Shown in pieces: positions 1,896 to 55,537 of a stretch of DNA of 64,000 nt. Source of the DNA: Candidatus Levyibacteriota bacterium. GTDB taxonomy: Bacteria > Patescibacteriota > Microgenomatia > Levybacterales > UBA12049. The notes under the pieces are model-generated. The model was not told the origin of the DNA, searched no databases, and saw nothing but the letters and a program-made list of their open reading frames with translations. Both the position numbers and the translations under genes were made by a program. The stretch's first letter is position 1. Each line of letters starts with the position of its first letter. The DNA is taken from contig OY970292.1 in assembly GCA_963716145.1 (NCBI GenBank), positions 746,169 through 810,168 on the forward strand. Direction: 5' to 3'.

Positions 1896-2071
1896 ACAGC
1901 AATAATAGCAAATTAAAGTAATTTGTAAAGAGCTTTTATTTGGCTCCGCCTAATGGACGAAGTCAGAACCTACTATGTTAATATGTAGTTATTTGAATTA
2001 AGCTTGCAATGAATTCTTGCTTATATTGATAAGTGAGTTTAAATAATAGTATAGTATAGTATAGTATATAT

Positions 2072-2461
2072 ATGGCTAATGATCCCAAAAAAAATGAGTC
2101 GTTTTTCAAACATCTTTCCAAGCATCCAATAGATACATTTTTTGAGATATTTGTTTTTTTAGCCTTTACTCCCCTTTATACAAAAGTTACTCCCTGGATT
2201 TCAATTCCCTTAGCATTTATACAAGATATTGTTATCTTGGTCATTATGCTATTACTATTTAATGCAGATTCGGTGCACACTGGGGTTCGTATAAGCTTAT
2301 CAGCAGGTGGAATTTTGGGAGCAATACTAGCAATCGGTATTATTTCTCAATTAATAGAATTTGTTTATTCTAATCTAACTATTTGTATAGTAGGCTTATT
2401 GGTATTTTATATCTATGTTTTTGCAACAAACAAAAGACCTCGATTTGAATGGATTGATTAA
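2072..2461 (+). CDS. hypothetical integral membrane protein (AT-rich island cargo)
   Basis: ORF track; about 33% GC; hydrophobic helices; preceded by (tatag)x4 tandem repeat at 2049-2070. Confidence 0.4.
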   Translation: MANDPKKNESFFKHLSKHPIDTFFEIFVFLAFTPLYTKVTPWISIPLAFIQDIVILVIMLLLFNADSVHTGVRISLSAGGILGAILAIGIISQLIEFVYSNLTICIVGLLVFYIYVFATNKRPRFEWID

Positions 2462-2552
2462 GCATAGTATGTTCCGCCTGATAGACGACTTTTAATCTAT
2501 GTAAAATATTAAATTTATTTTTCAAATAGGTTTAATGTATTTAACATAACTA

Positions 2553-3281
2553 CTATTTATGAATTTCAAAACCATTAACAGTAAGAATTTTATATTTTCT
2601 ATCAAGTGGAACCCGTTTAGAGATTGTTTTGTTTAGTATCTTGCCAACTGTAACATTCTGGAGTTCTCTACGAAAATCATCTAAAAAAGCACTTATTTCG
2701 GTTGTATTTAGCCAATAAGTGTTAATTAATTTAATTAATTCTTTATCGTTTAATTTCATTGTTTTTCCAAAAAACTCTGGAAAGATTTGCTCAGTTAAAT
2801 TCATATGCTTATCATTTACCCTTGTTCTAAATTCATTTAGGAAGATTCCACGCATTTTTTTTAAAGAATCAAATATAATTTCATGATTTTCGTATGACTG
2901 CACAAAATTTACATATGCGGTTTGTAGATCTGAATACCTGTCCGAAACCTCATTCCATTTATCTAATCTGTGCTTTGTTTGATTATTCCCGTTTACCAAT
3001 GGATTGTTTTGGCTAATTATAAAATAAATCAACCATTGAATAGTTGTACTATAGTTTGAAAACGCTGTTGAAAATTCAAAAAGTTTATTTTGAAAATCAC
3101 TCCATCCTTCATAGATAATCTTGTGTTCAAATTGCTTAGACATTTGCCTAAAAGCTGTTTTAACGGCAATAAATGCGGCAATTAAAGTTACAGATGCACC
3201 AATTAAAACTCCTAGGAGTTGAGCTTCATTAGCATGGAGTGATTTAGTCCACTCGTGTAAACCTAGTATAGCTTCATACAT
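2553..3281 (-). CDS. hypothetical protein with N-terminal TM anchor (AT-rich island cargo)
   Basis: ORF track; about 30% GC; no recognisable motifs. Confidence 0.4.
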   Translation of the reverse strand: MYEAILGLHEWTKSLHANEAQLLGVLIGASVTLIAAFIAVKTAFRQMSKQFEHKIIYEGWSDFQNKLFEFSTAFSNYSTTIQWLIYFIISQNNPLVNGNNQTKHRLDKWNEVSDRYSDLQTAYVNFVQSYENHEIIFDSLKKMRGIFLNEFRTRVNDKHMNLTEQIFPEFFGKTMKLNDKELIKLINTYWLNTTEISAFLDDFRRELQNVTVGKILNKTISKRVPLDRKYKILTVNGFEIHK

Positions 3282-3432
3282 TTGAATGGATTATATCAAA
3301 AGATAAGCCATATTGCTCCCCAAGCCGTTGATTAATATAACTATAGATTTTGATAGCATAACTAACACAATCCAAGACGTACTATATATTGGAGAATTAA
3401 GAAAGAGATGGAAGGAGATTAAGCTTCTTATC

Positions 3433-4239
3433 TCAAGGGGTTAACTGTTTCAATTCATTTTCAATATACTTGATTTGTGCCATAAACGATTCTACATACC
3501 ATAAGGCTTCTCCCTCTTTTGGTTCAGGACTGTTTCCTGCATGGGCAACACCCCAAACATCTCCTCTATAAGCAACAAGATTTTCAATTAGCTTTACTTG
3601 TATTGGGTGTAAATTAATTTTTTTAGACAGCATTTTAAATGCAGATTCAAAAGTATTCTGAGTTGTAGTTTTTTTACAATAATCCTCAAAAACAATGCAC
3701 ATATCCTTTACCACATCCTTAGGTTTTTTAGATCTTGTAATCAAGCCATCCACTAGATCTCTAAAAACTTGCTGCGTCTTACTTGCAAAAGCTAATGTTT
3801 TATCTGTATCTGTTATGGTTTTTGCAGTTTCATCTTCTATTTTTAGATCAACATGTCCATCTGAGCTGAATTCATATACAGATCCTGAGTTGTTAAAAGC
3901 AAGACATATATCTCTAAAGAGTCTTAGTCTCTTAGTGCTATCCAAATCTCGTTTTGCTCTATCATAGTAAATTTCTATAAAATCGAAGATTTGATCATAA
4001 GTTGTTTTAGTTTCATCACGAAAATCCTCGATTCCTATTATATTGCCAAAATGCATTTGTAGATCTTTACTGAATGCTACATTATGTATCCAGTTAGTGT
4101 TGCCTATGCTGAAATTATATTCGTTTCCACTATAAGGATGTCCATAAAGTTGTAGTATTCTATTTCTCAGGCTTTTTGATGCATCACCGTATCCTGAGTA
4201 TTCTTTTTTTAGGCTATTTCGTTTTGAAAAAGTTTGCAT
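3433..4239 (-). CDS. hypothetical protein (AT-rich island cargo), 268 aa
   Basis: ORF track; about 32% GC; sits immediately next to the tRNA-derived repeat block. Confidence 0.4.
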   Translation of the reverse strand: MQTFSKRNSLKKEYSGYGDASKSLRNRILQLYGHPYSGNEYNFSIGNTNWIHNVAFSKDLQMHFGNIIGIEDFRDETKTTYDQIFDFIEIYYDRAKRDLDSTKRLRLFRDICLAFNNSGSVYEFSSDGHVDLKIEDETAKTITDTDKTLAFASKTQQVFRDLVDGLITRSKKPKDVVKDMCIVFEDYCKKTTTQNTFESAFKMLSKKINLHPIQVKLIENLVAYRGDVWGVAHAGNSPEPKEGEALWYVESFMAQIKYIENELKQLTP

Positions 4240-15195: not shown

Positions 15196-17085
15196 ATGGT
15201 CAGCCTGTCATTTGCCAAACTGGTTGCTACACCCACGGACACTTCATGGTCTCAAGTTTATAATGCCGGCAATCTTTTTGCATCCCTCTCTTTATCAAAA
15301 ACGGAAACTGAGGAAGAGGTCTTTCTGCATTCCATAGGAAAAGAGATGTTCGCCAATTTAGAGGCGGAATTTTTCACTCTTGAGGACAAAAGTCTGCAAA
15401 GTATCAAAGATGCTATTGCCAATAGCACGCATATCATTCCCTCAGGTGTTTCTGCCAATTTAAGCCTGGCTTACTTTAAAGGCAACATTCTCTACCTGTT
15501 TATCTATGGGGCAGGCACAGTTACTATAAAGCGGGGTGGAAAAGTCGGAACTTTGCTTGAAGAAAAGTCTACAGAAAATACGGAAATAGTTTCATCTTCT
15601 GGATTTTTAGAACAAAATGATACCATTGTTCTCCAAACTCCACAATTTGCAAAAGATATGCCCATGGAAACAATCTCCTCAGCGCTTGATTTAAGCCTAC
15701 CAAACGATATTGCTGAGGCACTCTCCCCCGCGATGCATGAGAAGGATGACGGCTCGCCTCGCGTCGAAGCGGGTGGACAGGCAGCAATTATAATAGAATA
15801 TAAGGAGGCTAGTCCTCAGCAAGAAAAGCAATCATCCGAAATTGAAACCCCGGATAAATCTTTCTCGGAAATCGAAGAAATCCCAAATAAAGAGCAGACA
15901 GATATTGCTGAAAAGTCTATTCATGAAAACCTCGGAGAAATCGAAGAAATCACTGTTGAAAAAGACGAATTAGACGTAATTATTGCTGAGAACATATCAT
16001 CAACTCATTCTAAAAAACCATCTTTTTTTTCAAGACTAAGACTCTCTTCCATATTTACCTCATTCAAGCCCGCGTTCCAAGGAAATAAAAACACAATTCA
16101 GCTCAATCACAGAAAAAAACTTTTCTTAAGTATAGCCGTTATAATACTTATTCTTCTTGTTGTGAGTATCTCACTCACCAAGAAAAAGCAGGATGATAGC
16201 AAAACCCAGGCGCTCTTCAACTCTGTCTATACCCCGGCATTTGCGGATTATGAAAAGGGACTGGGTATTGAGAGCATAAATAAAGATTTTGCACGAAGTG
16301 ATTTCCAAAAAGCGCAAAAAAAATTAACAGAGAATAAAGATAAATTCAAAAAAGGCTCAACTGAAGAAAAACAGATATCAGAGTTGCTTTCCAAAGTAAA
16401 CTCAGAACTGGGAGGAACAACAAGTGCCACAAAAATTACGCCAAAAGCGGTAACTTTAAGTGATGCAGACTTGCTGAGTGTGGAAAAAGATAATTCTGGC
16501 GGCATTGCTTACACTGTAAATAAAGACTCTGTTGATTATTTGACAGAGAAAGCTGTTGTTTCGGTTGATAAGGCGGGTAAAACAAAAGACATTATAGAAA
16601 ATGATAATGATTGGGAAAAGGGCGTTGGGTTGGCTGCATATCAGGGCAACATTTATATTCTGGATACAAAAAACGGTGTTCTTAAATTTACTGCCGGTTC
16701 AGATGGATTTGGCCAGACTAGCTACCTCAAAGAAAAACCAGACTTGAGTAATGCTTCCTCAATAGCGATTGACGGTTCTGTCTGGATTTTATTAAAGGAT
16801 GGAAATATATTGAAATATACCAGAGGCGTGTCTGATGGACTCAAAGTAAAAGGATTGGATAAGCAAATGTCCGGAGCAAGCAGAATATTTACCAATATTG
16901 ATACGGAAAATCTCTATGTTCTGGATCCTGGGAACTCAAGAATTGTAAAGTTCAATAAAGACGGTAATTTCCAAACTCAATACAGCGCGGATATTTTAAA
17001 GAGTGCCAAGGACCTGGAAGTCAGTGAAAAAGACGGCAAAATCCTCGTGCTATCAAATGGTAAAACCTGGGAAATACCACTCTAA
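15196..17085 (+). CDS. hypothetical single-pass membrane protein with C-terminal beta-propeller-like (NHL-like) repeats
   Basis: TM near residue 310; repeated 'G.IYILD..NG.L.KF' / 'LYVLDPGNSRIVKF' segments. Confidence 0.45.
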   Translation: MVSLSFAKLVATPTDTSWSQVYNAGNLFASLSLSKTETEEEVFLHSIGKEMFANLEAEFFTLEDKSLQSIKDAIANSTHIIPSGVSANLSLAYFKGNILYLFIYGAGTVTIKRGGKVGTLLEEKSTENTEIVSSSGFLEQNDTIVLQTPQFAKDMPMETISSALDLSLPNDIAEALSPAMHEKDDGSPRVEAGGQAAIIIEYKEASPQQEKQSSEIETPDKSFSEIEEIPNKEQTDIAEKSIHENLGEIEEITVEKDELDVIIAENISSTHSKKPSFFSRLRLSSIFTSFKPAFQGNKNTIQLNHRKKLFLSIAVIILILLVVSISLTKKKQDDSKTQALFNSVYTPAFADYEKGLGIESINKDFARSDFQKAQKKLTENKDKFKKGSTEEKQISELLSKVNSELGGTTSATKITPKAVTLSDADLLSVEKDNSGGIAYTVNKDSVDYLTEKAVVSVDKAGKTKDIIENDNDWEKGVGLAAYQGNIYILDTKNGVLKFTAGSDGFGQTSYLKEKPDLSNASSIAIDGSVWILLKDGNILKYTRGVSDGLKVKGLDKQMSGASRIFTNIDTENLYVLDPGNSRIVKFNKDGNFQTQYSADILKSAKDLEVSEKDGKILVLSNGKTWEIPL

Positions 17086-17093
17086 TGCTTGAC

Positions 17094-17888
17094 TTACCTT
17101 CGAGAAGATCGGTACTTTTCTCCAACTCCATGAACAGTTTTTCCCGGATATGCACCTCTTACGGCATCGTAAACAACTCCTGCTGTTCTTCCACGCAAAA
17201 CTAAATCAACAAAGATGCCTATTTCTCTTTTTGAGCTAAATACCTGCTGACCGTCTTCGGTTTTTGGTAATACTACACGTTTACTTCCCATATTGGGTGC
17301 TGCTGGTTTCAACTCAAAACACTCTCGTCGTACATTCTGAACAACAAATTGTCTATGCAATTCTGCGCGATGATAGTCTGTGCTCAACGGAGCAATAATT
17401 CCCACTTTAGACGACAAAAGCTCATTTATAGACAGAGGGATTTCATTTCTCTTGATATAACTGTGAGTTAACCCTGCTTCCCAGTCACGATCAAGTGATT
17501 TTGCATCACTTGTTAAACCATCAACAGATTCGCCTTCATTCCTGTTCCAATAAGTAGTTGTAGGATATTTTGCGTATTTAATACGCAACTCTTTAATAAT
17601 AAGATCCAGCTGTTCTCGTTGATCCTGCTGAGAATCTACTGAAATAGCTGCAACTATCAATTGAGCCGTTACAATTGCCAATCTTTCAGAATCTCTCAAT
17701 ACACCTTGCTCTTCTGCTTCTCTCTCCGGCGTAGTAATCTCCTCTCCCTTTTCTGCTGCAACTAGAGCAGCCGATCTCATACATCGGGTCAACCATACTG
17801 CATGGCCTACTCTCCCCGTATCCTCTTTGGAAAGCAAGGTTTCTTTCATAATAGGTGCGATTATAACAATAAAATCAGTAATAATCAA
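17094..17888 (-). CDS. hypothetical protein; elevated GC (about 50%) relative to the locus; lies directly downstream of the ssrA 3' end
   Basis: ORF track; GC counted by hand in 17701-17800 = 51%; Arg/Ala/Val-rich; true start may be the internal Met (MKETLL). Confidence 0.4.
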   Translation of the reverse strand: MIITDFIVIIAPIMKETLLSKEDTGRVGHAVWLTRCMRSAALVAAEKGEEITTPEREAEEQGVLRDSERLAIVTAQLIVAAISVDSQQDQREQLDLIIKELRIKYAKYPTTTYWNRNEGESVDGLTSDAKSLDRDWEAGLTHSYIKRNEIPLSINELLSSKVGIIAPLSTDYHRAELHRQFVVQNVRRECFELKPAAPNMGSKRVVLPKTEDGQQVFSSKREIGIFVDLVLRGRTAGVVYDAVRGAYPGKTVHGVGEKYRSSRR

Positions 17889-17910: not shown

Positions 17911-17935
17911 AAAAGCCTCCGATTAAGGAGGCTTT
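17911..17935 (-). terminator. Rho-independent terminator hairpin (GCCTCC-ttaatc-GGAGGC followed by a T-run on the minus strand), just 3' of the tmRNA
   Basis: perfect 6-bp GC-rich stem 'aaaagcctccgattaaggaggcttt'. Confidence 0.6.
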
Positions 17936-17940
17936 ATTTG

Positions 17941-18304
17941 TGGAGATGTCGATGAGTGACATCGAGTCCGAGTAAACTATCTCTGAACATCTACAAGCTT
18001 AGTCAATTTATTAAATTCAATTTTATCCTTTCCAATTGACAGGAAAATAAAATCTAGGTTTGATAAATTCAATAAAAAGTAAAACCAAACTTCTTATTTT
18101 CTTCCCAACTGTATTTATGCTCATACAGTCCCGTTGAGAAAGACTTATATGAACAGCTTTAACTCAATTAAGCTTACGCGAAATTGTAGTTATAAGCGTA
18201 ACGACTTTCATCGTTAGCATTTATATTTTGATCGGTTTTACGGCTTTGATCATTGCCGGCTTGCAGTTTTTAAGGTACTTTTCCCGTCGAATCAATTCAT
18301 CCCC
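17941..18304 (-). ncRNA. ssrA: tmRNA (SsrA), about 364 nt, standard one-piece; predicted tag peptide ANDESRYAYNYNFA
   Basis: 5' 'GGGGATGAATTGATTCGACGGG' matches the tmRNA consensus; 3' acceptor 'CATCTCC-A' pairs with the 5' GGGGATG including the G3.U wobble; resume codon GCT followed by AAC GAT GAA... TAA; adjacent to smpB. Confidence 0.8.
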
Positions 18305-18364: not shown

Positions 18365-18802
18365 TTAGTTATTTTTTAAAAGTTCTTCTTGTTCCCGGTC
18401 AAGATCTTTTTTCTTGATTGCTTGCCGCTTCTCAAATTTCTTTTTTGATTTACCCAACGCTATCTCAAGCTTGATTAATCTATTGGAAGTATACCACGAA
18501 ACAGGCACGATTGTCAAGTCCGCGCCCTCGATTTTGGACTTTATGGAGATGATTTCCTTCTTATGCATCAGCAGTTTGCGGGTGCGCCCGGGGTCATAAT
18601 TTTCAGGTCTGCCAAACTCATATGGGAAGATCTTGGAATTGATCAAATAGGCCTCACTTCCGACAATTTTGACAAAACTGCCTGTCAGATCAGCATGACC
18701 AAGCCTGATAGCCTTGACTTCCGAACCCAAAAGATTTATCCCGGCCTCAAATTTCTCCCGCACTTCAAAATCAAAATACGCCTTTTTATTTGTAATTTTC
18801 AT
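18365..18802 (-). CDS. smpB: SsrA-binding protein SmpB
   Basis: 'KKAYFDFEV.EKFEAGI.L.GSEVKAIR' SmpB signature. Confidence 0.9.
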   Translation of the reverse strand: MKITNKKAYFDFEVREKFEAGINLLGSEVKAIRLGHADLTGSFVKIVGSEAYLINSKIFPYEFGRPENYDPGRTRKLLMHKKEIISIKSKIEGADLTIVPVSWYTSNRLIKLEIALGKSKKKFEKRQAIKKKDLDREQEELLKNN

Positions 18803-19746: not shown

Positions 19747-20187
19747 ATGGAAAAAGATCAACCATTTTTAGAAAAATGGATTCTGCCGAGATTTGATATT
19801 GACGGCTTAAATACTGTTGAATGGGGCGAATGGACTTCTGGTATCTGGGAAACAGCGTTTATTCAAGTTAAGATCAATGGTATCCAGTACATTCTTGCCC
19901 AAGACTCATCAGGACAAGTCTTCCCAAGAGGAGAGCCAAAAGATTGGCTACGTAAGTATCTCTTTGAAATTGAACTACGGGAGAGAAGGAAACTACCTTT
20001 CCAGCCCACAGATGCAGTAAGAACAAGGCGGGAAACAACGATTGGTAATTATTCAACCAATTACGGCGTAAAATTAACTGATGAGGATTTATTTCCACTT
20101 GAATATAATGCTCAACCAAACAGAAAAAAGAAATTTAAAAATTATGAAAGTCCTTACATGGATTGGTTTATGTTATTTAAGCAGTAG
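19747..20187 (+). CDS. hypothetical protein, 146 aa, located between two Ser-type tRNA genes
   Basis: ORF track only. Confidence 0.35.
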   Translation: MEKDQPFLEKWILPRFDIDGLNTVEWGEWTSGIWETAFIQVKINGIQYILAQDSSGQVFPRGEPKDWLRKYLFEIELRERRKLPFQPTDAVRTRRETTIGNYSTNYGVKLTDEDLFPLEYNAQPNRKKKFKNYESPYMDWFMLFKQ

Positions 20188-20293: not shown

Positions 20294-20378
20294 GGAGGAG
20301 TCGCATAGTGGTCTAGTGCAGCGGTTTACTAAACCGCCATACCGCAAGGTATCGGGAGTCCGAATCTCCCCTCCTCCG
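20294..20378 (+). tRNA. class II tRNA, tRNA-Ser(GCU) paralog with anticodon loop TTACTAA (apparent anticodon ACU, A34) and T-loop TCCGAAT (C55); possibly a pseudo- or atypical tRNA
   Basis: hand fold: acceptor GGAGGAG/CTCCTCC, D-arm GCAT-AGTGGTCTA-GTGC, anticodon stem GCGGT/ACCGC, variable-arm hairpin ATACC-GCAA-GGTAT, T-stem GGGAG/CTCCC; the anticodon loop differs from the upstream tRNA-Ser by a single G-to-A change at position 34. Confidence 0.6.
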
Positions 20379-43814: not shown

Positions 43815-45347
43815 ATGCTAGCGAAAGTTATGTCTGCTGCAGTTGTTGGCTTGGATGCTGTGCCTATTGAGGTTGAGATCGATATCGCCGCACAAGGTCT
43901 GCCAAATTTTTTTATTGTCGGATTACCAGATAAAGCAGTAGATGAGGCCAAAGAACGGGTCAGATCTGCGATTAAGAACACTGGGGCAGACTTTCCTGCC
44001 AAAAGGATAACTGTGAATCTCGCACCCGCAGATCTTCCCAAAGAAGGCGCTTCATACGATCTGCCTATTGCCTTAGGAATACTCATCGCATCAGGCCAGA
44101 TTGATGCAGATATTTCAAACTTTCTATTCTCAGGAGAACTATCACTGGACGGCAGGGTCAGATCAATCAATGGCGCGCTTCCTCTGGCCATAACCGCAAA
44201 GGAGAAGAAAATAAGCAGTATCTTTCTGCCGGTTGATAATGCAGCTGAGGCTGGAATAGTTCAGGGACTTGATGTTTATCCGGTGGCGACACTTAAACAG
44301 CTTTTCTTACATCTTACGGGAGGCACGCCGATTGTAAAGCAAAAACCTGTGAAGTTCTCCACAAAAACCTCCGCGGAGGTTTTTGATTACGATATGAAGG
44401 AAATAAAAGGCCAGCAACAGACCAAAAGGGCACTCGAAATAGCAGCAGCTGGTGCGCATAATATTCTTCTCAAAGGCCCGCCCGGAGCCGGAAAGACATT
44501 GCTCGCGCGCACGTTCCCATCTATTCTTCCGAGCCTGACGTTTGAGGAAATGATCGAGGTAACCAAAATTTACAGTATCGCTGGGCTTTTGGGAAAAGAG
44601 CCGATGATAAATAAACGCCCCTTCCGATCGCCTCATCATTCAACATCTCTGATCGGGCTTATCGGAGGGGGTGCTAATCCCAAACCAGGGGAAGTCACTC
44701 TCGCCCACCGCGGAGTGCTTTTTCTTGATGAATTTCCTGAATTCCCTAGATTTGTTCTTGAATCTCTCAGACAGCCGATTGAGGATAACATCGTTTCCAT
44801 CTCCCGCGCCAAGGGCAAAACCACTTTTCCAGCCCAATGCATGCTGGTGGCCGCCCAAAACCCGTGCATGTGTGGATATCTTGGGGATAAGTACCATGAA
44901 TGCACCTGCGCTCCATCCCAAATCCTCAAATATCAGAAGAAGGTTTCCGGCCCGCTTCTGGACAGAATAGATATCCATATCGATGTTCCGGCTGTAAAAG
45001 TCCACAAGCTAACTGAGGAAGATTTGGGCGTTGAAGACTCGGCCAAAATCCGCAAAAGAGTGCAAAAAGCCCGTGATCTCCAGCTAAAACGCTATAAGGG
45101 AAGTAAAATTGGCTCAAATGCCGAGCTGAATAATAAAAGTATCAAAGTCTATTGCATATTGTCTGAAGAATGTCTCCAGCTCTTGCGCCTAGCAGTAAGT
45201 AAGATGCATTTGTCAGGAAGATCGTACTACAGAACGATCAAACTCGCCCGTACAATAGCTGATCTGGAAAATGTGGATACCATAGCCCCAAATCACATCG
45301 CGGAGGCTCTCCAATACCGCCCAAAAGTTGAAAACACCTTAACATAA
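43815..45347 (+). CDS. comM: YifB/ComM-family Mg-chelatase-like AAA+ ATPase
   Basis: N-terminal 'MLAKVMSAAVVGLDAVPIEVEIDI..GLP.F.IVGLPD', Walker A 'GPPGAGKT', C-terminal chelatase domain. Confidence 0.85.
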   Translation: MLAKVMSAAVVGLDAVPIEVEIDIAAQGLPNFFIVGLPDKAVDEAKERVRSAIKNTGADFPAKRITVNLAPADLPKEGASYDLPIALGILIASGQIDADISNFLFSGELSLDGRVRSINGALPLAITAKEKKISSIFLPVDNAAEAGIVQGLDVYPVATLKQLFLHLTGGTPIVKQKPVKFSTKTSAEVFDYDMKEIKGQQQTKRALEIAAAGAHNILLKGPPGAGKTLLARTFPSILPSLTFEEMIEVTKIYSIAGLLGKEPMINKRPFRSPHHSTSLIGLIGGGANPKPGEVTLAHRGVLFLDEFPEFPRFVLESLRQPIEDNIVSISRAKGKTTFPAQCMLVAAQNPCMCGYLGDKYHECTCAPSQILKYQKKVSGPLLDRIDIHIDVPAVKVHKLTEEDLGVEDSAKIRKRVQKARDLQLKRYKGSKIGSNAELNNKSIKVYCILSEECLQLLRLAVSKMHLSGRSYYRTIKLARTIADLENVDTIAPNHIAEALQYRPKVENTLT

Positions 45348-45437: not shown

Positions 45438-45470
45438 TAGTTATTAATTGTTAAATTGAGTAATAATTTT

Positions 45471-47213
45471 ATGAACCAAACTACCTTACTTTCTACGGAT
45501 GCAGCATGCAAACTTCTTGGAGTTACTAGACAAACGCTTTATAAATTGCTTGAAAAGGGAGAGATTCCTGGAAAAAAAGTTGGGGGTAGCTATAAATTTG
45601 TACAGCAGCAGCTTCTTGACTACATGAATAACAACTCAAAGCAAAATGAATATAAAGAATGGGAACTAAAGGGAGATTTTGCCACAGAAGGAATTAAAAA
45701 AATGGCAAAAAGAACTTTTCAAGAACTTGCCTCAAACTTAGAAGAATTAATAGCAAACGCTTACGATGCTGATGCTACTGAAGTACAAGTAACCATCGAC
45801 CAAGATAAGAAAACATTAAGTATCACAGATGATGGCAGCGGAATGGATGAAAAATCACTTTCCTCTTATGTAATTTATGGAGAAAGTCAGAAAGATACTA
45901 ACTACAGATCTCCCAAGTTTAAGCGAGCACCCATAGGGGAATATGGAATGGGCGGCAAGCTGGCCATCACAAATATCTGCAATCTTTGTAAAATCATAAC
46001 CAGAAAGCAGGGCAAAGAACACATATTTAGCATGAATAGAGCAGATCTCGATAAGGCAAAATTTGTTAGCGATATTACAAGCAAAGTACTAACAAAAAAT
46101 TGCTCCCCCACTCTTAACGGTACATCAATACATATGGAAAAATTATTTTCTAAAACTATAGACAGTGAGAGATTATTAGAAAGATTTTCTACTAAAATGC
46201 CAAAGAGTCAGAATTTTAAAATAACTGTAATAATCATAAAAGACAATGAGAGGAAAGAAATTGAAGTAAAAGAACCAGAATTTGAATATGAAGAAAAATT
46301 TGATTTTAGTGAAAAATTGAACTTAATAGGAGATGCCAGAATGACCATTTATTTCACAAAAGAACCCATTTCCCCTACCAAACAAGGGGTGTGGACTAGG
46401 GTAAACGGAAGAATTGTTAACGAAAAAGCAGAATGGTTTGACTTATTTAGAGCGACATCTGGAACTAGATATCGATATAGGCTGTTTGGTTATGGTGAAG
46501 CTAATGGTTTAAAAGATTTTGTTACTTTTTCCAAAAACGATTTTATTGATTGCCCGGAATATAGAGAATATTGGAATTTTGGTCACAAAAATATTTTAAA
46601 AGTTCAAAACAGCTTACTTAAAAGGGATGACGATGCAAAAAAAGTCCGAGACAGAACTATTGTAAAATCAGTAGAAGATGAAATCAATAAGATAGTCTCA
46701 AGGCTTGATACTCCTTCTATTTTGGGCGGCCTAGAATCAAAAATTAAGAAAGAGTTTACAAAGGAAATAGAAAATGCTCCCGAAACAGCTTACCCAAATT
46801 TTGAAGCGGTTGAAAAAGAAGCGGAGAAAATAGCAAATGATGTAAAAAGAGGGAAAGACAGAAGAGAACGCAGAAATCAAAGTCTTACCTCTAGTGAAAA
46901 AGTAAATTTTTCAGGTAAAAACTATTCTATAATTACCGTCAATTTATCAGAAAAGGGTGATCTAGTAAAGTTTGTGAAGGAAAAAAATTTGATAGAAATT
47001 AACGAAAGACATCCACTTTACAACAAATCTTCAAGCGATAATAACCTAGAAAGTTTTATTATGAATATTGCATTTACTGAAATTGCTCTGGATTACAGTG
47101 ATGGAAACTTTTTGAGTTTTGATAGTGTATTTAATGCCTTAGCAAGAATTGCTTCTGAGAAGGTTACAGTAAGTCAAATTACAGAACAAACCATTCGAGA
47201 TACTACCAATTAA
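45471..47213 (+). CDS. excisionase-type HTH (HTH_17-like) fused to a GHKL/MORC-like ATPase (HATPase_c_3-like), with a long C-terminal region of unknown function (alternative TTG start at 45456)
   Basis: N-terminal 'LLGVTRQTLYKLLEKGEIPGKKVGGSYKF'; GHKL N-box 'LEELIANAYDADATEV', G1 'DDGSGMD', G2 'GEYGMGGKLA'; about 32-35% GC. Confidence 0.6.
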   Translation: MNQTTLLSTDAACKLLGVTRQTLYKLLEKGEIPGKKVGGSYKFVQQQLLDYMNNNSKQNEYKEWELKGDFATEGIKKMAKRTFQELASNLEELIANAYDADATEVQVTIDQDKKTLSITDDGSGMDEKSLSSYVIYGESQKDTNYRSPKFKRAPIGEYGMGGKLAITNICNLCKIITRKQGKEHIFSMNRADLDKAKFVSDITSKVLTKNCSPTLNGTSIHMEKLFSKTIDSERLLERFSTKMPKSQNFKITVIIIKDNERKEIEVKEPEFEYEEKFDFSEKLNLIGDARMTIYFTKEPISPTKQGVWTRVNGRIVNEKAEWFDLFRATSGTRYRYRLFGYGEANGLKDFVTFSKNDFIDCPEYREYWNFGHKNILKVQNSLLKRDDDAKKVRDRTIVKSVEDEINKIVSRLDTPSILGGLESKIKKEFTKEIENAPETAYPNFEAVEKEAEKIANDVKRGKDRRERRNQSLTSSEKVNFSGKNYSIITVNLSEKGDLVKFVKEKNLIEINERHPLYNKSSSDNNLESFIMNIAFTEIALDYSDGNFLSFDSVFNALARIASEKVTVSQITEQTIRDTTN

Positions 47214-48076
47214 TGATGCAATTAGAATTGCCACTTCAGCAGAAAAAAAGGAAAAAATATAAATCGAGACAATCGGTAAAATACACTCCAAGCAAAGATC
47301 AGACTAGTAAATTACTAATGATAGAAGAGCTCTATTATCAAAAAGGTACCTTGCAAAAGACTGCTGACCATTTAGGACTAACAAAACAAAGAGTAAGTCA
47401 GCTATTAAATAAGGGTAAAAAATACAAACTTTACACATATGAGTTGGCTAGAAAAAGAAATTTGAAAAATCTAGCGGAGAAAATTGGAAGAGAAAACTTA
47501 ATAAGAGAAATAAAAAATGAAATAATAATACCTAAGATATGTAAAAAATTGGGTATAGATATTGTAGACTTCCATAAATTAATTAAGCATTTTGAACTTG
47601 ACTATCAAGACTATAATTTAAGCGCAAGACAGAGAAGATATATAAGAATGTATATGAACATAGTTGATGAGCTAGGACATCATCCCTCTACAACAGAGAT
47701 GAACACTAGAACAAAATGGAGAGGTGTGTGGTCTGGTTTATCCAGACACTGGAACAGCATGGAAAAATTCAGAAGGGAGTTTGGAATTGAACAACCACCG
47801 AGATTTATTCATCCCAATACAATAGTGGGTTTTAGGGAACATAAAATTAAAGTTAAACAAAAAAAGGCAACAAATATAGATAAAATTAGAGAACTCCTCC
47901 AAAATTATAGTATCCCAGTAAACATAGAGATGATTGCTAGTAATTTCACTTGCGCTCGAGGTACAATAAATAACTATCTCACAACACTCATATCTACAGG
48001 AGAGATAATTAAAATCAGAGAAGGCAAACGTGTAAAATATACGCTTAAAAAAACGCACATTAACTCAAGTATATAA
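47213..48076 (+). CDS. DNA-binding protein with a sigma-70 region-4-like HTH plus a C-terminal winged-helix-like segment; overlaps the stop of the upstream gene
   Basis: 'TLQKTADHLGLTKQRVSQLLNKG' HTH; C-terminal 'GTINNYLTTLISTGEIIKIREGKRVKYTL'; stop-start overlap TAATG; AT-rich. Confidence 0.5.
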   Translation: MMQLELPLQQKKRKKYKSRQSVKYTPSKDQTSKLLMIEELYYQKGTLQKTADHLGLTKQRVSQLLNKGKKYKLYTYELARKRNLKNLAEKIGRENLIREIKNEIIIPKICKKLGIDIVDFHKLIKHFELDYQDYNLSARQRRYIRMYMNIVDELGHHPSTTEMNTRTKWRGVWSGLSRHWNSMEKFRREFGIEQPPRFIHPNTIVGFREHKIKVKQKKATNIDKIRELLQNYSIPVNIEMIASNFTCARGTINNYLTTLISTGEIIKIREGKRVKYTLKKTHINSSI

Positions 48077-53255: not shown

Positions 53256-53663
53256 TTACAGCCCCACTTTTGCCCCTAGAACTCGTCCGTCTTTGAAATT
53301 AGGATCAATTTCCAAGGCTTTTTTAATATAAATTTTTGACTCCTCCATGTCCCCCAATTTATAATTCAGTGCGGCAATTTTGAAGTAGACATCGCGATAG
53401 TTTTTATACTCTCCAAGCTTCCCCTTCCATTGGTTTAATTCCTGCACTGTTTTTTCACGCTCCTGCCTAAGCAGCTTCTCTTTCTGAAGATTTTGATACA
53501 GGGCTATGCTCTGGAAAACTATGGCTACTAAAACAACTGCTGAGGCTAGACTGCACAAGATTAATTTCCATGATTCGGTAATAAATCGGTATATCTTCGG
53601 GAAAAGAGAAGCTTTCTGTTCTTGGGATGGAGATTGTTTTTTGATTATGCGCTTTGCGGCCAT
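53256..53663 (-). CDS. membrane-anchored TPR-like repeat protein
   Basis: TM helix plus 'YIKKALEIDPNFKDG' TPR-like segment. Confidence 0.4.
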   Translation of the reverse strand: MAAKRIIKKQSPSQEQKASLFPKIYRFITESWKLILCSLASAVVLVAIVFQSIALYQNLQKEKLLRQEREKTVQELNQWKGKLGEYKNYRDVYFKIAALNYKLGDMEESKIYIKKALEIDPNFKDGRVLGAKVGL

Positions 53664-55537
53664 GCTTCTATCATAATGGATTTTCCATGATTTGGCATCT
53701 TTTGATAAATTTCCTCTGTCACAAAAGGCATGAATGGGTGAAGAAGCTTGAGGGATGTTACATAAACCTGAAGCAGAACAGACAAGGCAATATCCTTATC
53801 CTCCCTGTTTTTTACACTCTCAATATACTTATCAGCAACTGTGTGCCACATGAATTGATAAATTACCTCAGCTGCGTCTGCAAAGCGGAATTTTTCAAGC
53901 TCCCTATCAACTGTCTTAATCAGAGACTCTAATTGTTTGATAATCTCTTTATCCTCACTTGTCATTTTCTTTTTATCCAACTTTTCAAACTCAGGAACGT
54001 CCTTTCCCCATTCATCACGCATCAGCAGAATAAATCTTCCCATGTTCCAAATTTTATTCGCAAAATGCTTATAAGCAATTACCCGGTCTTTGGGGAAAGA
54101 AAAATCCTTTCCGTTTGAGGTGCCCGCAATAAGCCCCATCCGCAGAGCGTCTACACCGTACTGATCAAGATATTCTTCCGGATTTATTACATTTCCCAGA
54201 CTTTTACTCATTTTCCGCCCGTCCAAAGCCCTGACCATGCCATGCAAATAGACATCTTCAAATGGTACCTCTCCGGTCAAGTAAATCCCAAACATTATCA
54301 TTCTGGATACCCAAAGTTTTATAATCTCCCATCCTGTTTCCATAACGCTTGTAGGATAAAAATATTTAAAATCCTCTGAATCTGGGTATCCAAGTGTCAC
54401 AAGCGGCCATTGGCCACTGGAAAACCAAGTGTCAAACGTGTCTGTTTCCACAAGATATTTTTTCCCTTTTTGCTTATCCTCTTCAAAAAGCCATTCGGCA
54501 TCAGAATCAGCAATTACGCGCTGCAGTCCAGCTGTAATCTCTTCAAAAGTAACTCCTTTATCCAAAAACTGCTGCAAATTGCCATGATGATACTCGGCCT
54601 TTTTATCAAGAAACCAAACGGTAAATTGCTTTGGATTTGCTACTTCATACCAGACCGGAATTTGAATCCCCCAAACATTTTGCCTGGAAATTGGCCAATC
54701 CCGCATCTCCTCCATCCAGCGGACATAAGTGATCTCCTGCCACTTTGGAAAGATTTTAACTTTGCCTTTTTTCACTGCCTCCAGAGCCGGTTTTTTAAAG
54801 GATTTGTGCGAAGCATCCACTTTTACAAACCAATTGGGCAGAACCATTGGCTCTATGTCATGCCCTGCCTTACAAACCGTGACCGTATGTAAATACGCTT
54901 TATCAATTTTTTCGAGTAAACCCCGTTCCTCCAAATCCTCAGCTACTTTTTTGCGGGCAATTGCAACACTTAACCCTGCATAATTGCCTGCTTTTTCATT
55001 CAGTTTTCCGTCCAATCCTATTACCGGACGGACTTCAAGATTATGCCTCAAACCCGCTTCGTAATCATTTTTGTCATGCGCCGGCGTAACCTTAACAACT
55101 CCTGTTCCAAATTTTGGATCAACAAAATCATCAGCAATAACTTTCAGTCTAAATTTACCATTTAAGCCTTCCACTTCTATATCTTTTCCAATCCATTCTT
55201 TATATCTTTTGTCTTTTGGATTTACGGCAACTGCTGTGTCACCAAATTTTGTCTCAGGACGTACTGTAGCCAAAACAAAAGGTCCATAGTTAAGATAATA
55301 AAGCGGGTCTGTTCTTTCAACATGTTTTAACTCAACATCAGAGTAAGTAGTTCCGCATTTAGTACAGTAATTAACCATGTAATTACCTCTGTAAAGTAAT
55401 TTATCTTTACTCAGTTTTTTAAAAGTCCCATGAACTGTTTTAATAACTTCAGGATCCAGCGTAAACCGGTAGCGGCTCCAATCCACACTTGCCCCCATCC
55501 GGCGGATCTGATCCTCAATATTATGCTTGTTTTCCAT
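53645..55537 (-). CDS. valS: valyl-tRNA synthetase, C-terminal 630-aa portion (gene interrupted by a frameshift; the same frame reads back to about 55690)
   Basis: 'KMSKSLGNVINP' KMSKS motif, editing and anticodon-binding regions; the upstream continuation in this frame reads 'PTLWVPGTDHAGTETQ'. Confidence 0.8.
   Translation of the reverse strand: MENKHNIEDQIRRMGASVDWSRYRFTLDPEVIKTVHGTFKKLSKDKLLYRGNYMVNYCTKCGTTYSDVELKHVERTDPLYYLNYGPFVLATVRPETKFGDTAVAVNPKDKRYKEWIGKDIEVEGLNGKFRLKVIADDFVDPKFGTGVVKVTPAHDKNDYEAGLRHNLEVRPVIGLDGKLNEKAGNYAGLSVAIARKKVAEDLEERGLLEKIDKAYLHTVTVCKAGHDIEPMVLPNWFVKVDASHKSFKKPALEAVKKGKVKIFPKWQEITYVRWMEEMRDWPISRQNVWGIQIPVWYEVANPKQFTVWFLDKKAEYHHGNLQQFLDKGVTFEEITAGLQRVIADSDAEWLFEEDKQKGKKYLVETDTFDTWFSSGQWPLVTLGYPDSEDFKYFYPTSVMETGWEIIKLWVSRMIMFGIYLTGEVPFEDVYLHGMVRALDGRKMSKSLGNVINPEEYLDQYGVDALRMGLIAGTSNGKDFSFPKDRVIAYKHFANKIWNMGRFILLMRDEWGKDVPEFEKLDKKKMTSEDKEIIKQLESLIKTVDRELEKFRFADAAEVIYQFMWHTVADKYIESVKNREDKDIALSVLLQVYVTSLKLLHPFMPFVTEEIYQKMPNHGKSIMIEAWPQSA

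What the first reader, a model, noticed from the sequence alone, without database searches (positions are those of the whole stretch)
17941..18304. Unannotated tmRNA next to smpB with an atypical tag (ANDESRYAYNYNFA) and a non-canonical T-loop
The 460-bp gap upstream of smpB contains, on the minus strand, a 5' end GGGGATGAATTGATTCGACGGG (the tmRNA consensus). Its 3' end CATCTCC-A base-pairs with the 5' acceptor strand, including the G3.U wobble required for alanylation. A resume codon GCT follows 'AAAATATAAAT', and an ORF ANDESRYAYNYNFA ends in TAA. The T-loop is GTCACTC rather than TTCRANY, and CCA is not encoded. A strong terminator hairpin follows. The tag ends in 'NFA'. Endings like 'YAFA' are known from Mollicutes, but this one is unusual among tags I know.
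Basis: partly seen in the sequence, partly recalled or inferred. Interest (0 to 1): 0.55.

Follow-up and report, generated by a model that had tools for sequence, protein, structure and literature searches.

The report
tmRNA with a remodelled T-loop
This is a genuine ribosome-rescue RNA (tmRNA) beside its partner gene smpB in a Levybacteria (CPR) genome; the gene is ordinary, but its odd T-loop is shared by a whole bacterial lineage, makes a common gene finder miss most of these genes, and was not found described in the papers searched.

Summary
Window 17938-18304 (-) is a full-length one-piece tmRNA (Rfam RF00023, 120.3 bits, E 2e-46). It lies 60 nt 3' of smpB and is followed by a terminator. 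ARAGORN misses it. An in-silico repair shows the cause is the T-arm (G54, C58, U53-A61), not the missing CCA.

The host is a Levybacteria genome (Microgenomates, CPR). In 74 Microgenomates-type tmRNAs (56 unique tRNA-like domains):
- U55 and C56 are invariant, and position 58 is free (C > U > A).
- Positions 54 and 60 covary as a base pair. 39 of 55 are standard pairs, 15 are A.C or C.A, and 1 is G.A. The state changes at least 28 times on a tree.
- The D-loop GG becomes NG.

This implies a 6-bp T-stem capped by a UCANN pentaloop, in place of the canonical T-loop with its U54.A58 pair. tRNAs from the same loci are canonical (37 of 37), as are Paceibacteria, Saccharibacteria and other outgroup tmRNAs.

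The tag is not exceptional. -FA and -YA endings are common in the clade. The window's -NFA comes from a stop codon two codons earlier than in its closest relatives.

Verdict: a known kind of gene, and a clade-wide structural variant that I did not find described. Moderate interest.

The parts
17938..18304 (-). tmRNA (ssrA) gene, standard one-piece form. The transcript reads 18304 -> 17941 up to the discriminator. The last 3 positions (17940-17938, CAA) occupy the CCA positions.
   Evidence: RF00023 at 120.3 bits, E 2e-46, model positions 1-374 of 374. Orthologues sit next to smpB in 35 of 40 Levybacteria loci.
18298..18304 (-). 5' acceptor strand GGGGAUG, with G3 of the G3.U70 alanine identity pair.
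   Evidence: The acceptor is invariant and 100% paired in 32 distinct tRNA-like-domain rows.
18286..18297 (-). D-loop analogue AAUUGAUUCGAC with a single G (UG) where other bacteria have GG. The equivalent of G18 is lost and the equivalent of G19 is kept.
   Evidence: In the Rfam alignment the first G of the consensus GG aligns to U. GG is absent in 55 of 56 unique Microgenomates tRNA-like domains and present in 9 of 10 outgroups and in L066.
18174..18218 (-). Tag reading frame. Resume codon GCU (18218-18216), 14 codons encoding ANDESRYAYNYNFA, then stop TAA (18176-18174).
   Evidence: ARAGORN makes the same call after T-arm repair. The resume context ATAAAT|GCT is conserved across the lineage.
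18168..18173 (-). In-frame GCT TAA just after the stop. This is the ancestral last codon and stop still used by L001 and L002.
   Evidence: Three-way alignment of the window, L001 and L002.
17949..17965 (-). T-arm. Stem UCGAU/AUCGA (17965-17961 with 17953-17949). Loop GUCACUC (17960-17954). G54 (17960) and C60 (17954) are proposed to pair, leaving the pentaloop UCACU.
   Evidence: All 5 T-stem pairs show compensatory changes and are 100% paired. 54:60 covariation. The minimum-free-energy fold is ((((((.....)))))).
17941..17948 (-). 3' acceptor strand CAUCUCC plus discriminator A73.
17912..17935 (-). Intrinsic-terminator-like hairpin AAAGCCTCC-TTAATC-GGAGGCTTT followed by TTGGTGTTT.
18365..18802 (-). 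smpB (145 aa), the protein partner of tmRNA. It ends 60 nt before the tmRNA 5' end.
   Evidence: Pfam PF01668 SmpB, E 2.3e-47, 161 bits. The closest relatives are Candidatus Levyibacteriota MAGs.

Best explanation
This is the working ssrA gene of a Levybacteria (Microgenomates group, Patescibacteria/CPR) genome, paired with smpB.

How it most likely works (steps 1-4 are inferred from established tmRNA biology):
1. The precursor is cut at G1 (18304) by RNase P and trimmed at the 3' end. CCA is then completed enzymatically, because only A73-C74 are encoded.
2. AlaRS charges the RNA through G3.U70 and A73.
3. SmpB and EF-Tu deliver it to stalled ribosomes.
4. Translation resumes at GCU (18218) and appends (A)ANDESRYAYNYNFA, a hydrophobic tag ending in aromatic-Ala that marks the protein for proteolysis.

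What is special is the tRNA-like elbow. In this gene, and throughout the Microgenomates-type tmRNAs sampled, the canonical T-loop is replaced. The canonical form has a U54.A58 reverse-Hoogsteen pair, nucleotides 59/60 flipped out, and G18 intercalated. The replacement is a sixth T-stem pair, 54:60, closing a five-nucleotide loop U55-C56-A57-N58-N59. The D-loop keeps only the G that would pair with C56. So the outermost G:C elbow contact and the U-turn are probably kept, while the inner layers of the elbow are rebuilt.

Shown here: gene identity, conservation, 54:60 covariation, the D-loop change, the canonical tRNAs, and the cause of the ARAGORN failure. Inferred: the three-dimensional geometry, the retained G:C56 contact, and all biochemical steps.
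For: Identity:
- RF00023 full-length hit at 120.3 bits, with smpB adjacent and a terminator 3'.
- Orthologous full-length tmRNAs lie beside smpB in 35 of 40 Levybacteria loci and in 37 of 42 Gottesmanbacteria-like metagenome loci.

Function maintained by selection:
- The acceptor stem with G3.U70 is invariant within the Levybacteria/Gottesmanbacteria alignment, and all five T-stem pairs show compensatory changes with 100% pairing. In the wider set the acceptor covaries (GGGGACG/CGTCTCC), and G3.U70 was a requirement of that search.
- The resume context and tag-like ORFs are conserved.

Remodelled T-arm (55 unique 7-nt loops):
- U55 55/55, C56 55/55, A57 54/55.
- Position 58 is C35/U12/A8.
- 54:60 is GC10, UA10, AU9, UG8 and CG2 (39 standard pairs), plus 15 A.C/C.A and 1 G.A. 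The permutation mean is 19.2, and 0 of 20,000 shuffles reach 39. 54:58 can pair in only 14 of 55.
- Counting standard pairs or A.C on the 40 unique T-arms gives 39 of 40, against a permutation mean of 20.6.
- On a tree built with the T-loop masked, the 54:60 state changes at least 28 times, and 15 of 33 disjoint closest-relative contrasts are double switches between standard pairs.
- The minimum-free-energy fold gives a 6-bp stem plus pentaloop in 26 of 40 unique T-arms and in 0 of 10 outgroups.

D-loop and controls:
- GG is absent in 55 of 56 unique domains and present in 9 of 10 outgroups. Paceibacteria and Saccharibacteria are canonical.
- All 37 unique tRNAs from the same loci have T54, A58 and GG.

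Detection:
- Native ARAGORN detection is 15 of 75. With a canonical T-arm swapped in it is 51 of 75. Outgroups are detected 9 of 10.
- For the window, G54T+C58A together, or U53-A61 changed to G-C, rescues detection. Restoring CCA or GG does not.

Canonical elbow rules are taken from PMC7912444. The usual conservation of the tmRNA T-loop and helix 12 is from PMC1168896.
Against: - There is no expression, processing, charging or structural data, so everything is comparative.
- 15 of 55 unique domains have A.C or C.A at 54:60. These pair only if protonated or in a non-Watson-Crick geometry, so the interaction may not be a plain Watson-Crick pair.
- Eight loops still have A58 (for example UUCAAUA), so a canonical-like fold may persist in some members.
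- The metagenome loci carry no taxonomic labels. 'Microgenomates-wide' rests on labelled Levybacteria and one labelled Gottesmanbacteria genome, plus SmpB similarity.
- The tRNA control is biased, because tRNA finders favour canonical T-loops.
- My structural search required an exact 5-bp T-stem and a 6-8 nt loop, so more aberrant forms were not sampled.
- The proteases that would read the tag are not in the window.
Confidence: 0.8

Rival explanations
1. The RNA is a functional tmRNA, but the T-loop still adopts an essentially canonical T-loop fold despite its sequence. The 54/60 correlation would then reflect some other constraint, such as a tertiary or protein contact or a non-Watson-Crick 54-60 interaction, rather than a sixth helical pair.
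For: - 27% of unique domains have A.C or C.A at 54:60.
- The U55-C56-A57 core of the canonical loop is fully kept.
- Eight loops retain A58.
- Most members (44 of 56) still have G53-C61.
Against: - The canonical fold needs the 54.58 trans Watson-Crick/Hoogsteen pair and an intercalating G18 (PMC7912444).
- 54/58 combinations here are mostly G-C, A-C, U-C and U-U, with no consistent geometry, and the G18 equivalent is missing in 55 of 56.
- The exchange pattern GC/AU/UA/CG/UG with A.C intermediates is the classical signature of a cis Watson-Crick pair, and double compensatory switches are frequent between close relatives.
Confidence: 0.15
2. The gene is a decaying ssrA relic. The T-loop changes, the absent CCA and the early stop in the tag would be signs of lost function in a reduced CPR genome.
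For: - The T-loop lacks bases regarded as near-universal.
- The tag is two codons shorter than in the closest relatives.
- The RF00023 score (120 bits) is lower than for Firmicutes and Bacteroidetes outgroups (154-164 bits).
Against: - The same architecture is conserved in about 74 independent contigs. The acceptor stem is invariant or compensated, G3.U70 is kept in the 32 aligned Levybacteria/Gottesmanbacteria rows, and the T-stem changes are compensatory.
- An intact smpB is adjacent.
- The shortened tag still ends in aromatic-Ala, like its relatives.
- CCA is unencoded in 66 of 74 lineage members, so that is the norm there.
Confidence: 0.03
3. The unusual T-loop is an assembly or sequencing artefact of this particular contig.
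For: The window is one sequence of unknown origin.
Against: An identical tRNA-like domain (TCGAT GTCACTC ATCGA) occurs in independent assemblies L001, L002 and L013. Related variants occur in dozens of other MAGs and metagenome contigs.
Confidence: 0.01

Closest known systems
Standard one-piece bacterial tmRNA (SsrA; Rfam RF00023), e.g. E. coli SsrA with tag (A)ANDENYALAA
   Same: - Acceptor stem with G3.U70 and discriminator A73, a D-loop analogue ending in UCGAC, a 5-bp T-stem, and an alanine resume codon.
- The tag begins ANDE-, like the E. coli tag, and ends in a hydrophobic residue then Ala.
- Full-length covariance-model match, and the SmpB partner gene is present.
   Different: - The T-loop is GUCACUC instead of UUCAACU-type. 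There is no U54.A58, and 54:60 can pair.
- The window has U53-A61 instead of G53-C61.
- The D-loop has UG instead of GG.
- CCA is not encoded.
- The tag ends -NFA rather than -LAA.
Mollicutes tmRNA tags ending -YAFA/-FAFA, reported to be degraded by Lon rather than ClpXP (Gur & Sauer 2008; recalled from my own knowledge, not read here)
   Same: The tag ends in aromatic-Ala. Lineage relatives literally end -YAFA, -FAFA or -YAYA.
   Different: - The lineage is unrelated, and here the ending is truncated to -NFA by an early stop.
- Which protease reads the tag is unknown. None is encoded in the window.
- The one Mollicutes tmRNA sampled (L060) has a canonical T-loop, UUCAAAU, and a D-loop GG.
Previously noted tmRNA T-arm deviations: a possible sixth pair in helix 12 of Dehalococcoides ethenogenes tmRNA; U341/U342 replaced by GG in the Reclinomonas americana mitochondrion; the U342 equivalent changed to G in Caulobacter (Burks et al. 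2005, PMC1168896)
   Same: These are precedents showing that the otherwise highly conserved T-loop and helix 12 can deviate, including by an extra helix-12 pair.
   Different: - Those are single-species notes without covariation support.
- Here the extra pair is supported by many independent compensatory changes across a large clade, and it is coupled to loss of A58 conservation and of the first D-loop G.
- U55 (the U342 equivalent) is invariant here.
tRNAs with non-canonical elbows (tRNA-Pyl, mammalian mitochondrial tRNAs), which lack G18G19 and the T-Psi-C consensus (PMC1851642 and PMC2777451 surfaced and I saw only their abstracts; the tRNA-Pyl elbow details are from my own knowledge)
   Same: These are translation adaptors that function without the canonical D-loop/T-loop interaction network.
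   Different: They are tRNAs with anticodon arms, not tmRNA. Their specific solutions differ, and I did not compare them in detail here.

Membership tests
tmRNA (RF00023, standard one-piece form) | Covariance-model score above the curated gathering threshold over the full model | tested here: met
   120.3 bits against a gathering score of 47, E 2e-46, model positions 1-374 of 374, not truncated.
tmRNA (RF00023, standard one-piece form) | The 5' and 3' ends form a 7-bp acceptor stem with G3.U70 and discriminator A73 (the alanine identity elements) | tested here: met
   GGGGAUG pairs with CAUCUCC and is followed by A. This is invariant in 32 distinct relatives' rows.
tmRNA (RF00023, standard one-piece form) | A T-arm with a 5-bp stem supported by covariation | tested here: met
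   All 5 pairs show changes on both sides, and 100% of cells are paired.
tmRNA (RF00023, standard one-piece form) | Canonical T-loop sequence (U54 U55 C56 R57 A58 N59 Y60) and a D-loop GG | tested here: not met
   The loop is GUCACUC and the D-loop has UG. This is a consensus feature of the family rather than one that excludes membership. The whole Microgenomates set deviates in the same way.
tmRNA (RF00023, standard one-piece form) | An mRNA-like domain: a resume codon (usually Ala) opening a short ORF that ends in a hydrophobic C-terminus and a stop codon | tested here: met
   GCU is followed by 13 more codons and TAA, giving ANDESRYAYNYNFA. ARAGORN calls the same tag after T-arm repair.
tmRNA (RF00023, standard one-piece form) | Pseudoknots PK1-PK4 between the tRNA-like and mRNA-like parts | tested here: inconclusive
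   The nested helices of the model align along the full length, but with several non-standard pairs and low posterior probabilities in the PK2-PK4 region. The pseudoknotted strands were not tested individually.
tmRNA (RF00023, standard one-piece form) | A partner SmpB protein encoded in the genome | tested here: met
   PF01668 SmpB, E 2.3e-47, ending 60 nt 5' of the RNA.
tmRNA (RF00023, standard one-piece form) | A 3'-terminal CCA, alanylation by AlaRS, and activity in trans-translation | not testable with these tools
   CCA is not encoded (the sequence is CAA). 66 of 74 lineage members also lack an encoded CCA. Enzymatic addition and charging require experiments.
Canonical T-loop structural motif (tRNA elbow) | A trans Watson-Crick/Hoogsteen U54.A58 pair stacked on G53-C61 | tested here: not met
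   The window has G54, C58 and U53-A61. Across the lineage, position 58 is C35/U12/A8 and position 54 can be any base. The rule is from PMC7912444.
Canonical T-loop structural motif (tRNA elbow) | A D-loop G18 that pairs with U55 and intercalates, and a G19 that pairs with C56 | tested here: not met
   Only one G is present. It aligns with the second G of the consensus GG. GG is absent in 55 of 56 unique domains. C56 and U55 are invariant, so a G:C56 contact remains possible; this is an inference.
Canonical T-loop structural motif (tRNA elbow) | Nucleotides 59 and 60 flipped out and not base-paired within the loop | tested here: not met
   Position 60 covaries with position 54 as a base pair. 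The geometry itself is not testable here.

The most novel reading that the evidence does not exclude
Microgenomates (at least Levybacteria and Gottesmanbacteria-like lineages) carry a distinct structural class of tmRNA. In it the universal T-loop motif has been replaced by a 6-bp T-stem with a UCANN pentaloop and a one-G D-loop. If so, SmpB, EF-Tu, RNase P, the CCA-adding enzyme and the ribosome all work in these bacteria with an elbow that lacks U54.A58 and G18. m5U54 cannot exist in the roughly two-thirds of members where position 54 is not U. SmpB may also have co-adapted; lineage-specific residues F59, R65 and E67 appear. I did not find this class described in the literature I could search.
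Probability: 0.5. Interest if true: 0.55.

Novelty: new variant of a known kind. Interest (0 to 1): 0.42.

Why it matters
- **Annotation.** ARAGORN found only 15 of 75 Microgenomates-type tmRNAs here. Pipelines that rely on ARAGORN for tmRNA (to my knowledge, Prokka is one) would therefore wrongly suggest that trans-translation RNA is missing from many CPR genomes. The 2025 tmRNA database pipeline also selected candidates mainly from ARAGORN and BLASTN, and it needed a special Rfam-based pass for low-yield taxa (PMC11915505).
- **Structure.** The T-loop/D-loop elbow is among the most conserved RNA tertiary modules. D-loop/T-loop contacts are reported to be needed for SmpB binding (PMC3968760). 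A large clade that rebuilt this module in tmRNA only, while keeping it in its tRNAs, is a natural experiment on which elbow features trans-translation actually needs.
- **Limits.** The gene itself, its function and its tag are ordinary, and no long-standing question hinges on it.

Tried and rejected
- **ARAGORN on the window:** no tmRNA. This is explained by the T-arm, so it is not evidence against the gene.
- **First anchor-motif search:** too strict, since it required [AT]TTCGA[CT]. It missed most relatives, including L001 and L002. I replaced it with Rfam scans and a relaxed structural search.
- **A covarying 54:58 pair (a modified reverse-Hoogsteen pair or a G54-C58 pair):** rejected. Only 14 of 55 can pair and there is no consistent pattern.
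- **Missing CCA or missing D-loop GG as the reason ARAGORN fails:** rejected. Restoring either alone does not rescue detection.
- **A genomic island integrated at ssrA:** there is no second copy of the ssrA 3' end in the window, allowing up to 3 mismatches.
- **A phage attachment site:** no viral contig matches the Levybacteria-type ssrA 3' end pattern.
- **A tag-reading protease in the window:** Pfam scans of 26 ORFs found no ClpX, ClpP, Lon protease or FtsH. The only Lon_C-like hit lies inside a ComM/Mg-chelatase-type protein at 43815-45347.
- **SmpB co-adaptation:** lineage-specific positions were found, but they could not be mapped to RNA contacts. The Bessho 2007 structure paper is not held.
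- **Literature searches for a prior description of the remodelled T-loop:** none found. The library lacks most subscription-journal papers, so absence is not proof.
- **Bad structure string:** one search failed because the string had the wrong length. One search is the corrected run.

Full report

Yes. On the minus strand the sequence reads as follows:
- GGGGATGAATTGATTCGACGGG starts at 18304.
- ...TCGGAC TCGAT GTCACTC ATCGA CATCTCC A CAA ends at 17938.
- The resume context is AAAATATAAAT|GCT, with GCT at 18218-18216.
- The frame GCT AAC GAT GAA AGT CGT TAC GCT TAT AAC TAC AAT TTC GCG TAA encodes ANDESRYAYNYNFA.

A terminator-like hairpin follows at 17935-17912, with 9 pairs, 5 of them G-C, and then a T-run.

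Rfam's tmRNA model RF00023 matches 17938-18304 over its whole length at 120.3 bits (gathering score 47, E 2e-46). It is the only tmRNA hit in the window. The ORF at 18365-18802 (-) is SmpB (Pfam E 2.3e-47) and ends 60 nt before the RNA's 5' end. In gene orientation, therefore, the RNA lies downstream of smpB.

ARAGORN does not report the gene.

**2. Whose genome is it, and is the gene conserved?**

The closest SmpB relatives among one-genome-per-species contigs are Candidatus Levyibacteriota MAGs: 98% identity for L001, 89% for L002, then 60-79%. Several are obviously mislabelled as 'Lysobacterales' or 'uncultured Gammaproteobacteria'. NCBI places Levyibacteriota in the Microgenomates group of the Patescibacteria.

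RF00023 finds a full-length tmRNA beside smpB in 35 of loci L001-L040, plus one hit cut off by a contig end in L016. It usually lies 40-100 nt downstream on the same strand, and in seven loci it is on the opposite strand.

The rest of the window is ordinary housekeeping chromosome: PBP1, SpoIID, DnaG, RpoD, GlmS, ComM, RuvB, PGK, a class-I aaRS and a P-type ATPase.

**3. Why does ARAGORN miss it?**

I edited the window sequence in silico and re-ran ARAGORN.
- Rescue detection: G54T and C58A together, a full canonical loop, or changing U53-A61 to G-C.
- Do not rescue detection: G54T alone, C58A alone, restoring CCA, or restoring the D-loop GG.

Across the lineage, ARAGORN detects 15 of 75 native sequences. 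It detects 51 of 75 when a canonical T-arm is swapped in, and 9 of 10 outgroup tmRNAs. The deviant T-arm is therefore the main cause of the misses.

**4. The T-loop is a lineage trait, not a quirk.**

In all 36 Levybacteria tmRNAs first parsed, the loop reads N-T-C-A-[C/T]-N-N, and position 58 is never A.

To sample a second lineage without conditioning on the loop, I used the single metagenome scan with the Gottesmanbacteria SmpB (L041) as the query. I then located tmRNAs with a structural search that ignores the loop sequence.

Pooled, this gives 74 tmRNAs, 56 unique tRNA-like domains, and 55 unique domains with 7-nt loops:

| Position | Composition |
|---|---|
| 54 | T18 / A15 / G11 / C11 |
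| 55 | U in 55 of 55 |
| 56 | C in 55 of 55 |
| 57 | A in 54 of 55 |
| 58 | C35 / U12 / A8 |
| 59 | T36 / C11 / A8 |
| 60 | A20 / C16 / G10 / T9 |

The D-loop analogue lacks the usual GG in 55 of 56 unique domains. The remaining G aligns with the second G of the Rfam consensus.

Outgroups have TTCRANY-type loops and GG. These include a Paceibacteria (L050), a Saccharibacteria (L066), a Mollicutes (L060) and seven others.

All 37 unique tRNAs found in the window and the same loci have T54, A58 and GG, so the change is specific to tmRNA. The caveat is that tRNA finders prefer canonical loops.

**5. What replaced the canonical loop?**

Positions 54 and 60 covary:
- 39 of 55 form standard pairs: GC 10, UA 10, AU 9, UG 8 and CG 2.
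- 15 are A.C or C.A.
- 1 is G.A.
- Shuffling gives a mean of 19.2 standard pairs, and 0 of 20,000 shuffles reach 39.
- By contrast, 54:58 can pair in only 14 of 55.

Counted on the 40 unique T-arms, 39 of 40 have either a standard pair or A.C at 54:60, against a shuffled mean of 20.6.

On the Levybacteria/Gottesmanbacteria alignment, the formal pair count shows the following:
- The five T-stem pairs are all compensated and 100% paired.
- The acceptor stem is invariant.
- The 54:60 pair uses four pair types.
- The slid-partner controls collapse.

The signal is not a few inherited events. On a neighbour-joining tree built with the T-loop masked, the 54:60 state changes at least 28 times. In 15 of 33 disjoint closest-relative contrasts, both sides switch between two standard pairs, for example U:A to G:C at 13.7% divergence. 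One-sided changes run through G.U or A.C intermediates.

Thermodynamic folding gives a 6-bp stem plus a 5-nt loop for the window and for 26 of 40 unique T-arms. It does so for none of the 10 outgroups.

The canonical elbow (PMC7912444) has these features:
- U54.A58 stacks on a conserved G53-C61.
- Nucleotides 59 and 60 are flipped out.
- G18 contacts U55 and is stacked in the core.
- G19 pairs with C56.

The most economical reading of the data is this. A cis 54:60 pair now provides the layer on top of the T-stem. The U55-C56-A57 turn is kept. The single D-loop G keeps the contact with C56. The A58/G18 layers are lost. The geometry is inferred, not shown.

**6. The tag.**

This gave 50 unique tags.
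- 44 end in Ala.
- The commonest endings are -YA (12), -AA (11) and -FA (8).
- The commonest four-residue endings include -YAFA, -YAYA, -ALAA and -AFAA.

The window's N-terminal ANDE- resembles the widespread ANDEN motif.

Aligning the window with L001 and L002 shows where -NFA comes from. The window has TAA (18176-18174) exactly where L001 has TTT (Phe) and L002 has TAC (Tyr). The relatives' final GCT TAA still follows in frame. So -NFA is the clade's [F/Y]-A-[F/Y]-A ending cut short by two residues, and it still ends in aromatic-Ala.

The tag is therefore typical for the clade. Which protease reads it cannot be determined, because no Clp, Lon or FtsH gene lies in the window.

**7. CCA.**

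A73 and C74 are invariant in the lineage. However, only 8 of 74 members encode the full CCA (alignment). Enzymatic completion of the 3' end is therefore the rule there, not an oddity of this gene.

**8. Comparison with what is known.**

The gene is a member of the standard tmRNA family by every feature tested except the consensus T-loop and D-loop sequence.

Burks et al. [quoted passage not shown] They list only isolated deviations: a possible sixth pair in Dehalococcoides, GG for UU in a mitochondrion, and a U-to-G change in Caulobacter (PMC1168896).

The 2025 tmRNA database paper reports 5,275 tmRNAs for 6,765 Patescibacteria genomes, so such sequences are probably already in databases. Its text does not discuss a deviant T-loop. 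It describes a pipeline led by ARAGORN and BLASTN, with a special Rfam-based pass for low-yield taxa (PMC11915505).

Five literature searches found no description of this remodelling. The library is incomplete, so I treat 'undescribed' as probable, not certain.

**9. Verdict.**

The gene is an ordinary tmRNA in function. Its 'atypical' tag is normal for its clade, apart from the early stop.

The part that is interesting lies outside the original claim. The T-loop oddity is one instance of a clade-wide rebuilt tRNA-like elbow with strong covariation support, and it also explains the systematic detection failures. I rate it a new variant of a known kind, with moderate interest.

Noticed in passing
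window 20294-20378 (+); also L001 154-241, L003, L006, L039: A Ser-type tRNA with a long variable arm (RF00005, 49.8 bits). Its anticodon loop UUACUAA gives the anticodon ACU. To my knowledge, A34 is rare in bacterial tRNAs. It recurs in 5 Levybacteria loci, each of which also has a tRNA-Ser(GCU) except L001, where the fetched stretch starts at the contig end. The window copy also has C55 in its T-loop (UCCGAAU). The whole-window Rfam scan at the gathering threshold did not list it, but a local scan did.
   Followed up: partly
L005, L007, L010, L038, L039, L041, L097, L099 and other loci (tmRNA tag regions): Many Microgenomates tmRNAs encode unusually long tags of 25-33 residues with a heptad-like amphipathic stretch, for example AKSSIEALRAEKDAILAKLASLTAPRAYAFAA. 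The window and its closest relatives have 14-16-residue tags.
   Followed up: no
window 18365-18802 (-), SmpB residues 49, 59, 65, 67 (loop IFPYEFGRPEN): S49, F59, R65 and E67 are present in 80-96% of Microgenomates-type SmpBs and in at most 9% of outgroup SmpBs. This could be co-adaptation to the remodelled elbow, but I could not map the positions to RNA contacts.
   Followed up: partly
window 53645-55537 (-): A 630-aa class-I aminoacyl-tRNA synthetase ORF matches Pfam tRNA-synt_1 only from profile position 110 onward. The N-terminal part of the catalytic domain is missing from this ORF. Possible causes are a split gene, a frameshift, an intron or a miscalled start.
   Followed up: no
window 2001-4000 and 46001-48000: Two G+C dips (0.307 and 0.320, against about 0.40 elsewhere). 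The second has AT skew +0.24. It overlaps an ORF with HATPase_c_3 and HTH_17 domains at 45456-47213, which could be foreign or mobile DNA.
   Followed up: no
L127 2112-2504: A tmRNA with a different T-loop deviation, UGCGAAU (G at position 55), and no D-loop GG. It differs from the Microgenomates form and resembles the U342-to-G change noted for Caulobacter in PMC1168896.
   Followed up: no
L043 3472-3838; L118 and L119 2006-2436; L038 1279-1686: Further T-arm length variants: 6-nt loops (CTCACC in L043, TTCAAA in L118 and L119) and a probable 4-bp T-stem in L038. I excluded these from the statistics.
   Followed up: no
L001, L003, L005-L008, L010, L012 and other loci (record titles): Many MAGs whose SmpB and tmRNA are clearly of the Levybacteria type are titled 'Lysobacterales', 'uncultured Gammaproteobacteria' or 'Limnocylindrales' in the public records. 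These are probably taxonomic mislabels.
   Followed up: no
L004, L012, L022, L027, L030, L037 (Levybacteria); L084, L094, L109 (metagenome set): In these loci the tmRNA sits beside smpB but on the opposite strand. Adjacency is conserved while orientation is not, so co-transcription with smpB cannot be general.
   Followed up: no
window 17094-17888 (-), 15196-17085 (+), 19747-20187 (+): The ORFs flanking the smpB-ssrA pair (264, 629 and 146 aa) have no Pfam match. A sigma-70-like promoter, TTGATT-17-TATAAT at 17888-17860, lies just after the ssrA terminator.
   Followed up: no
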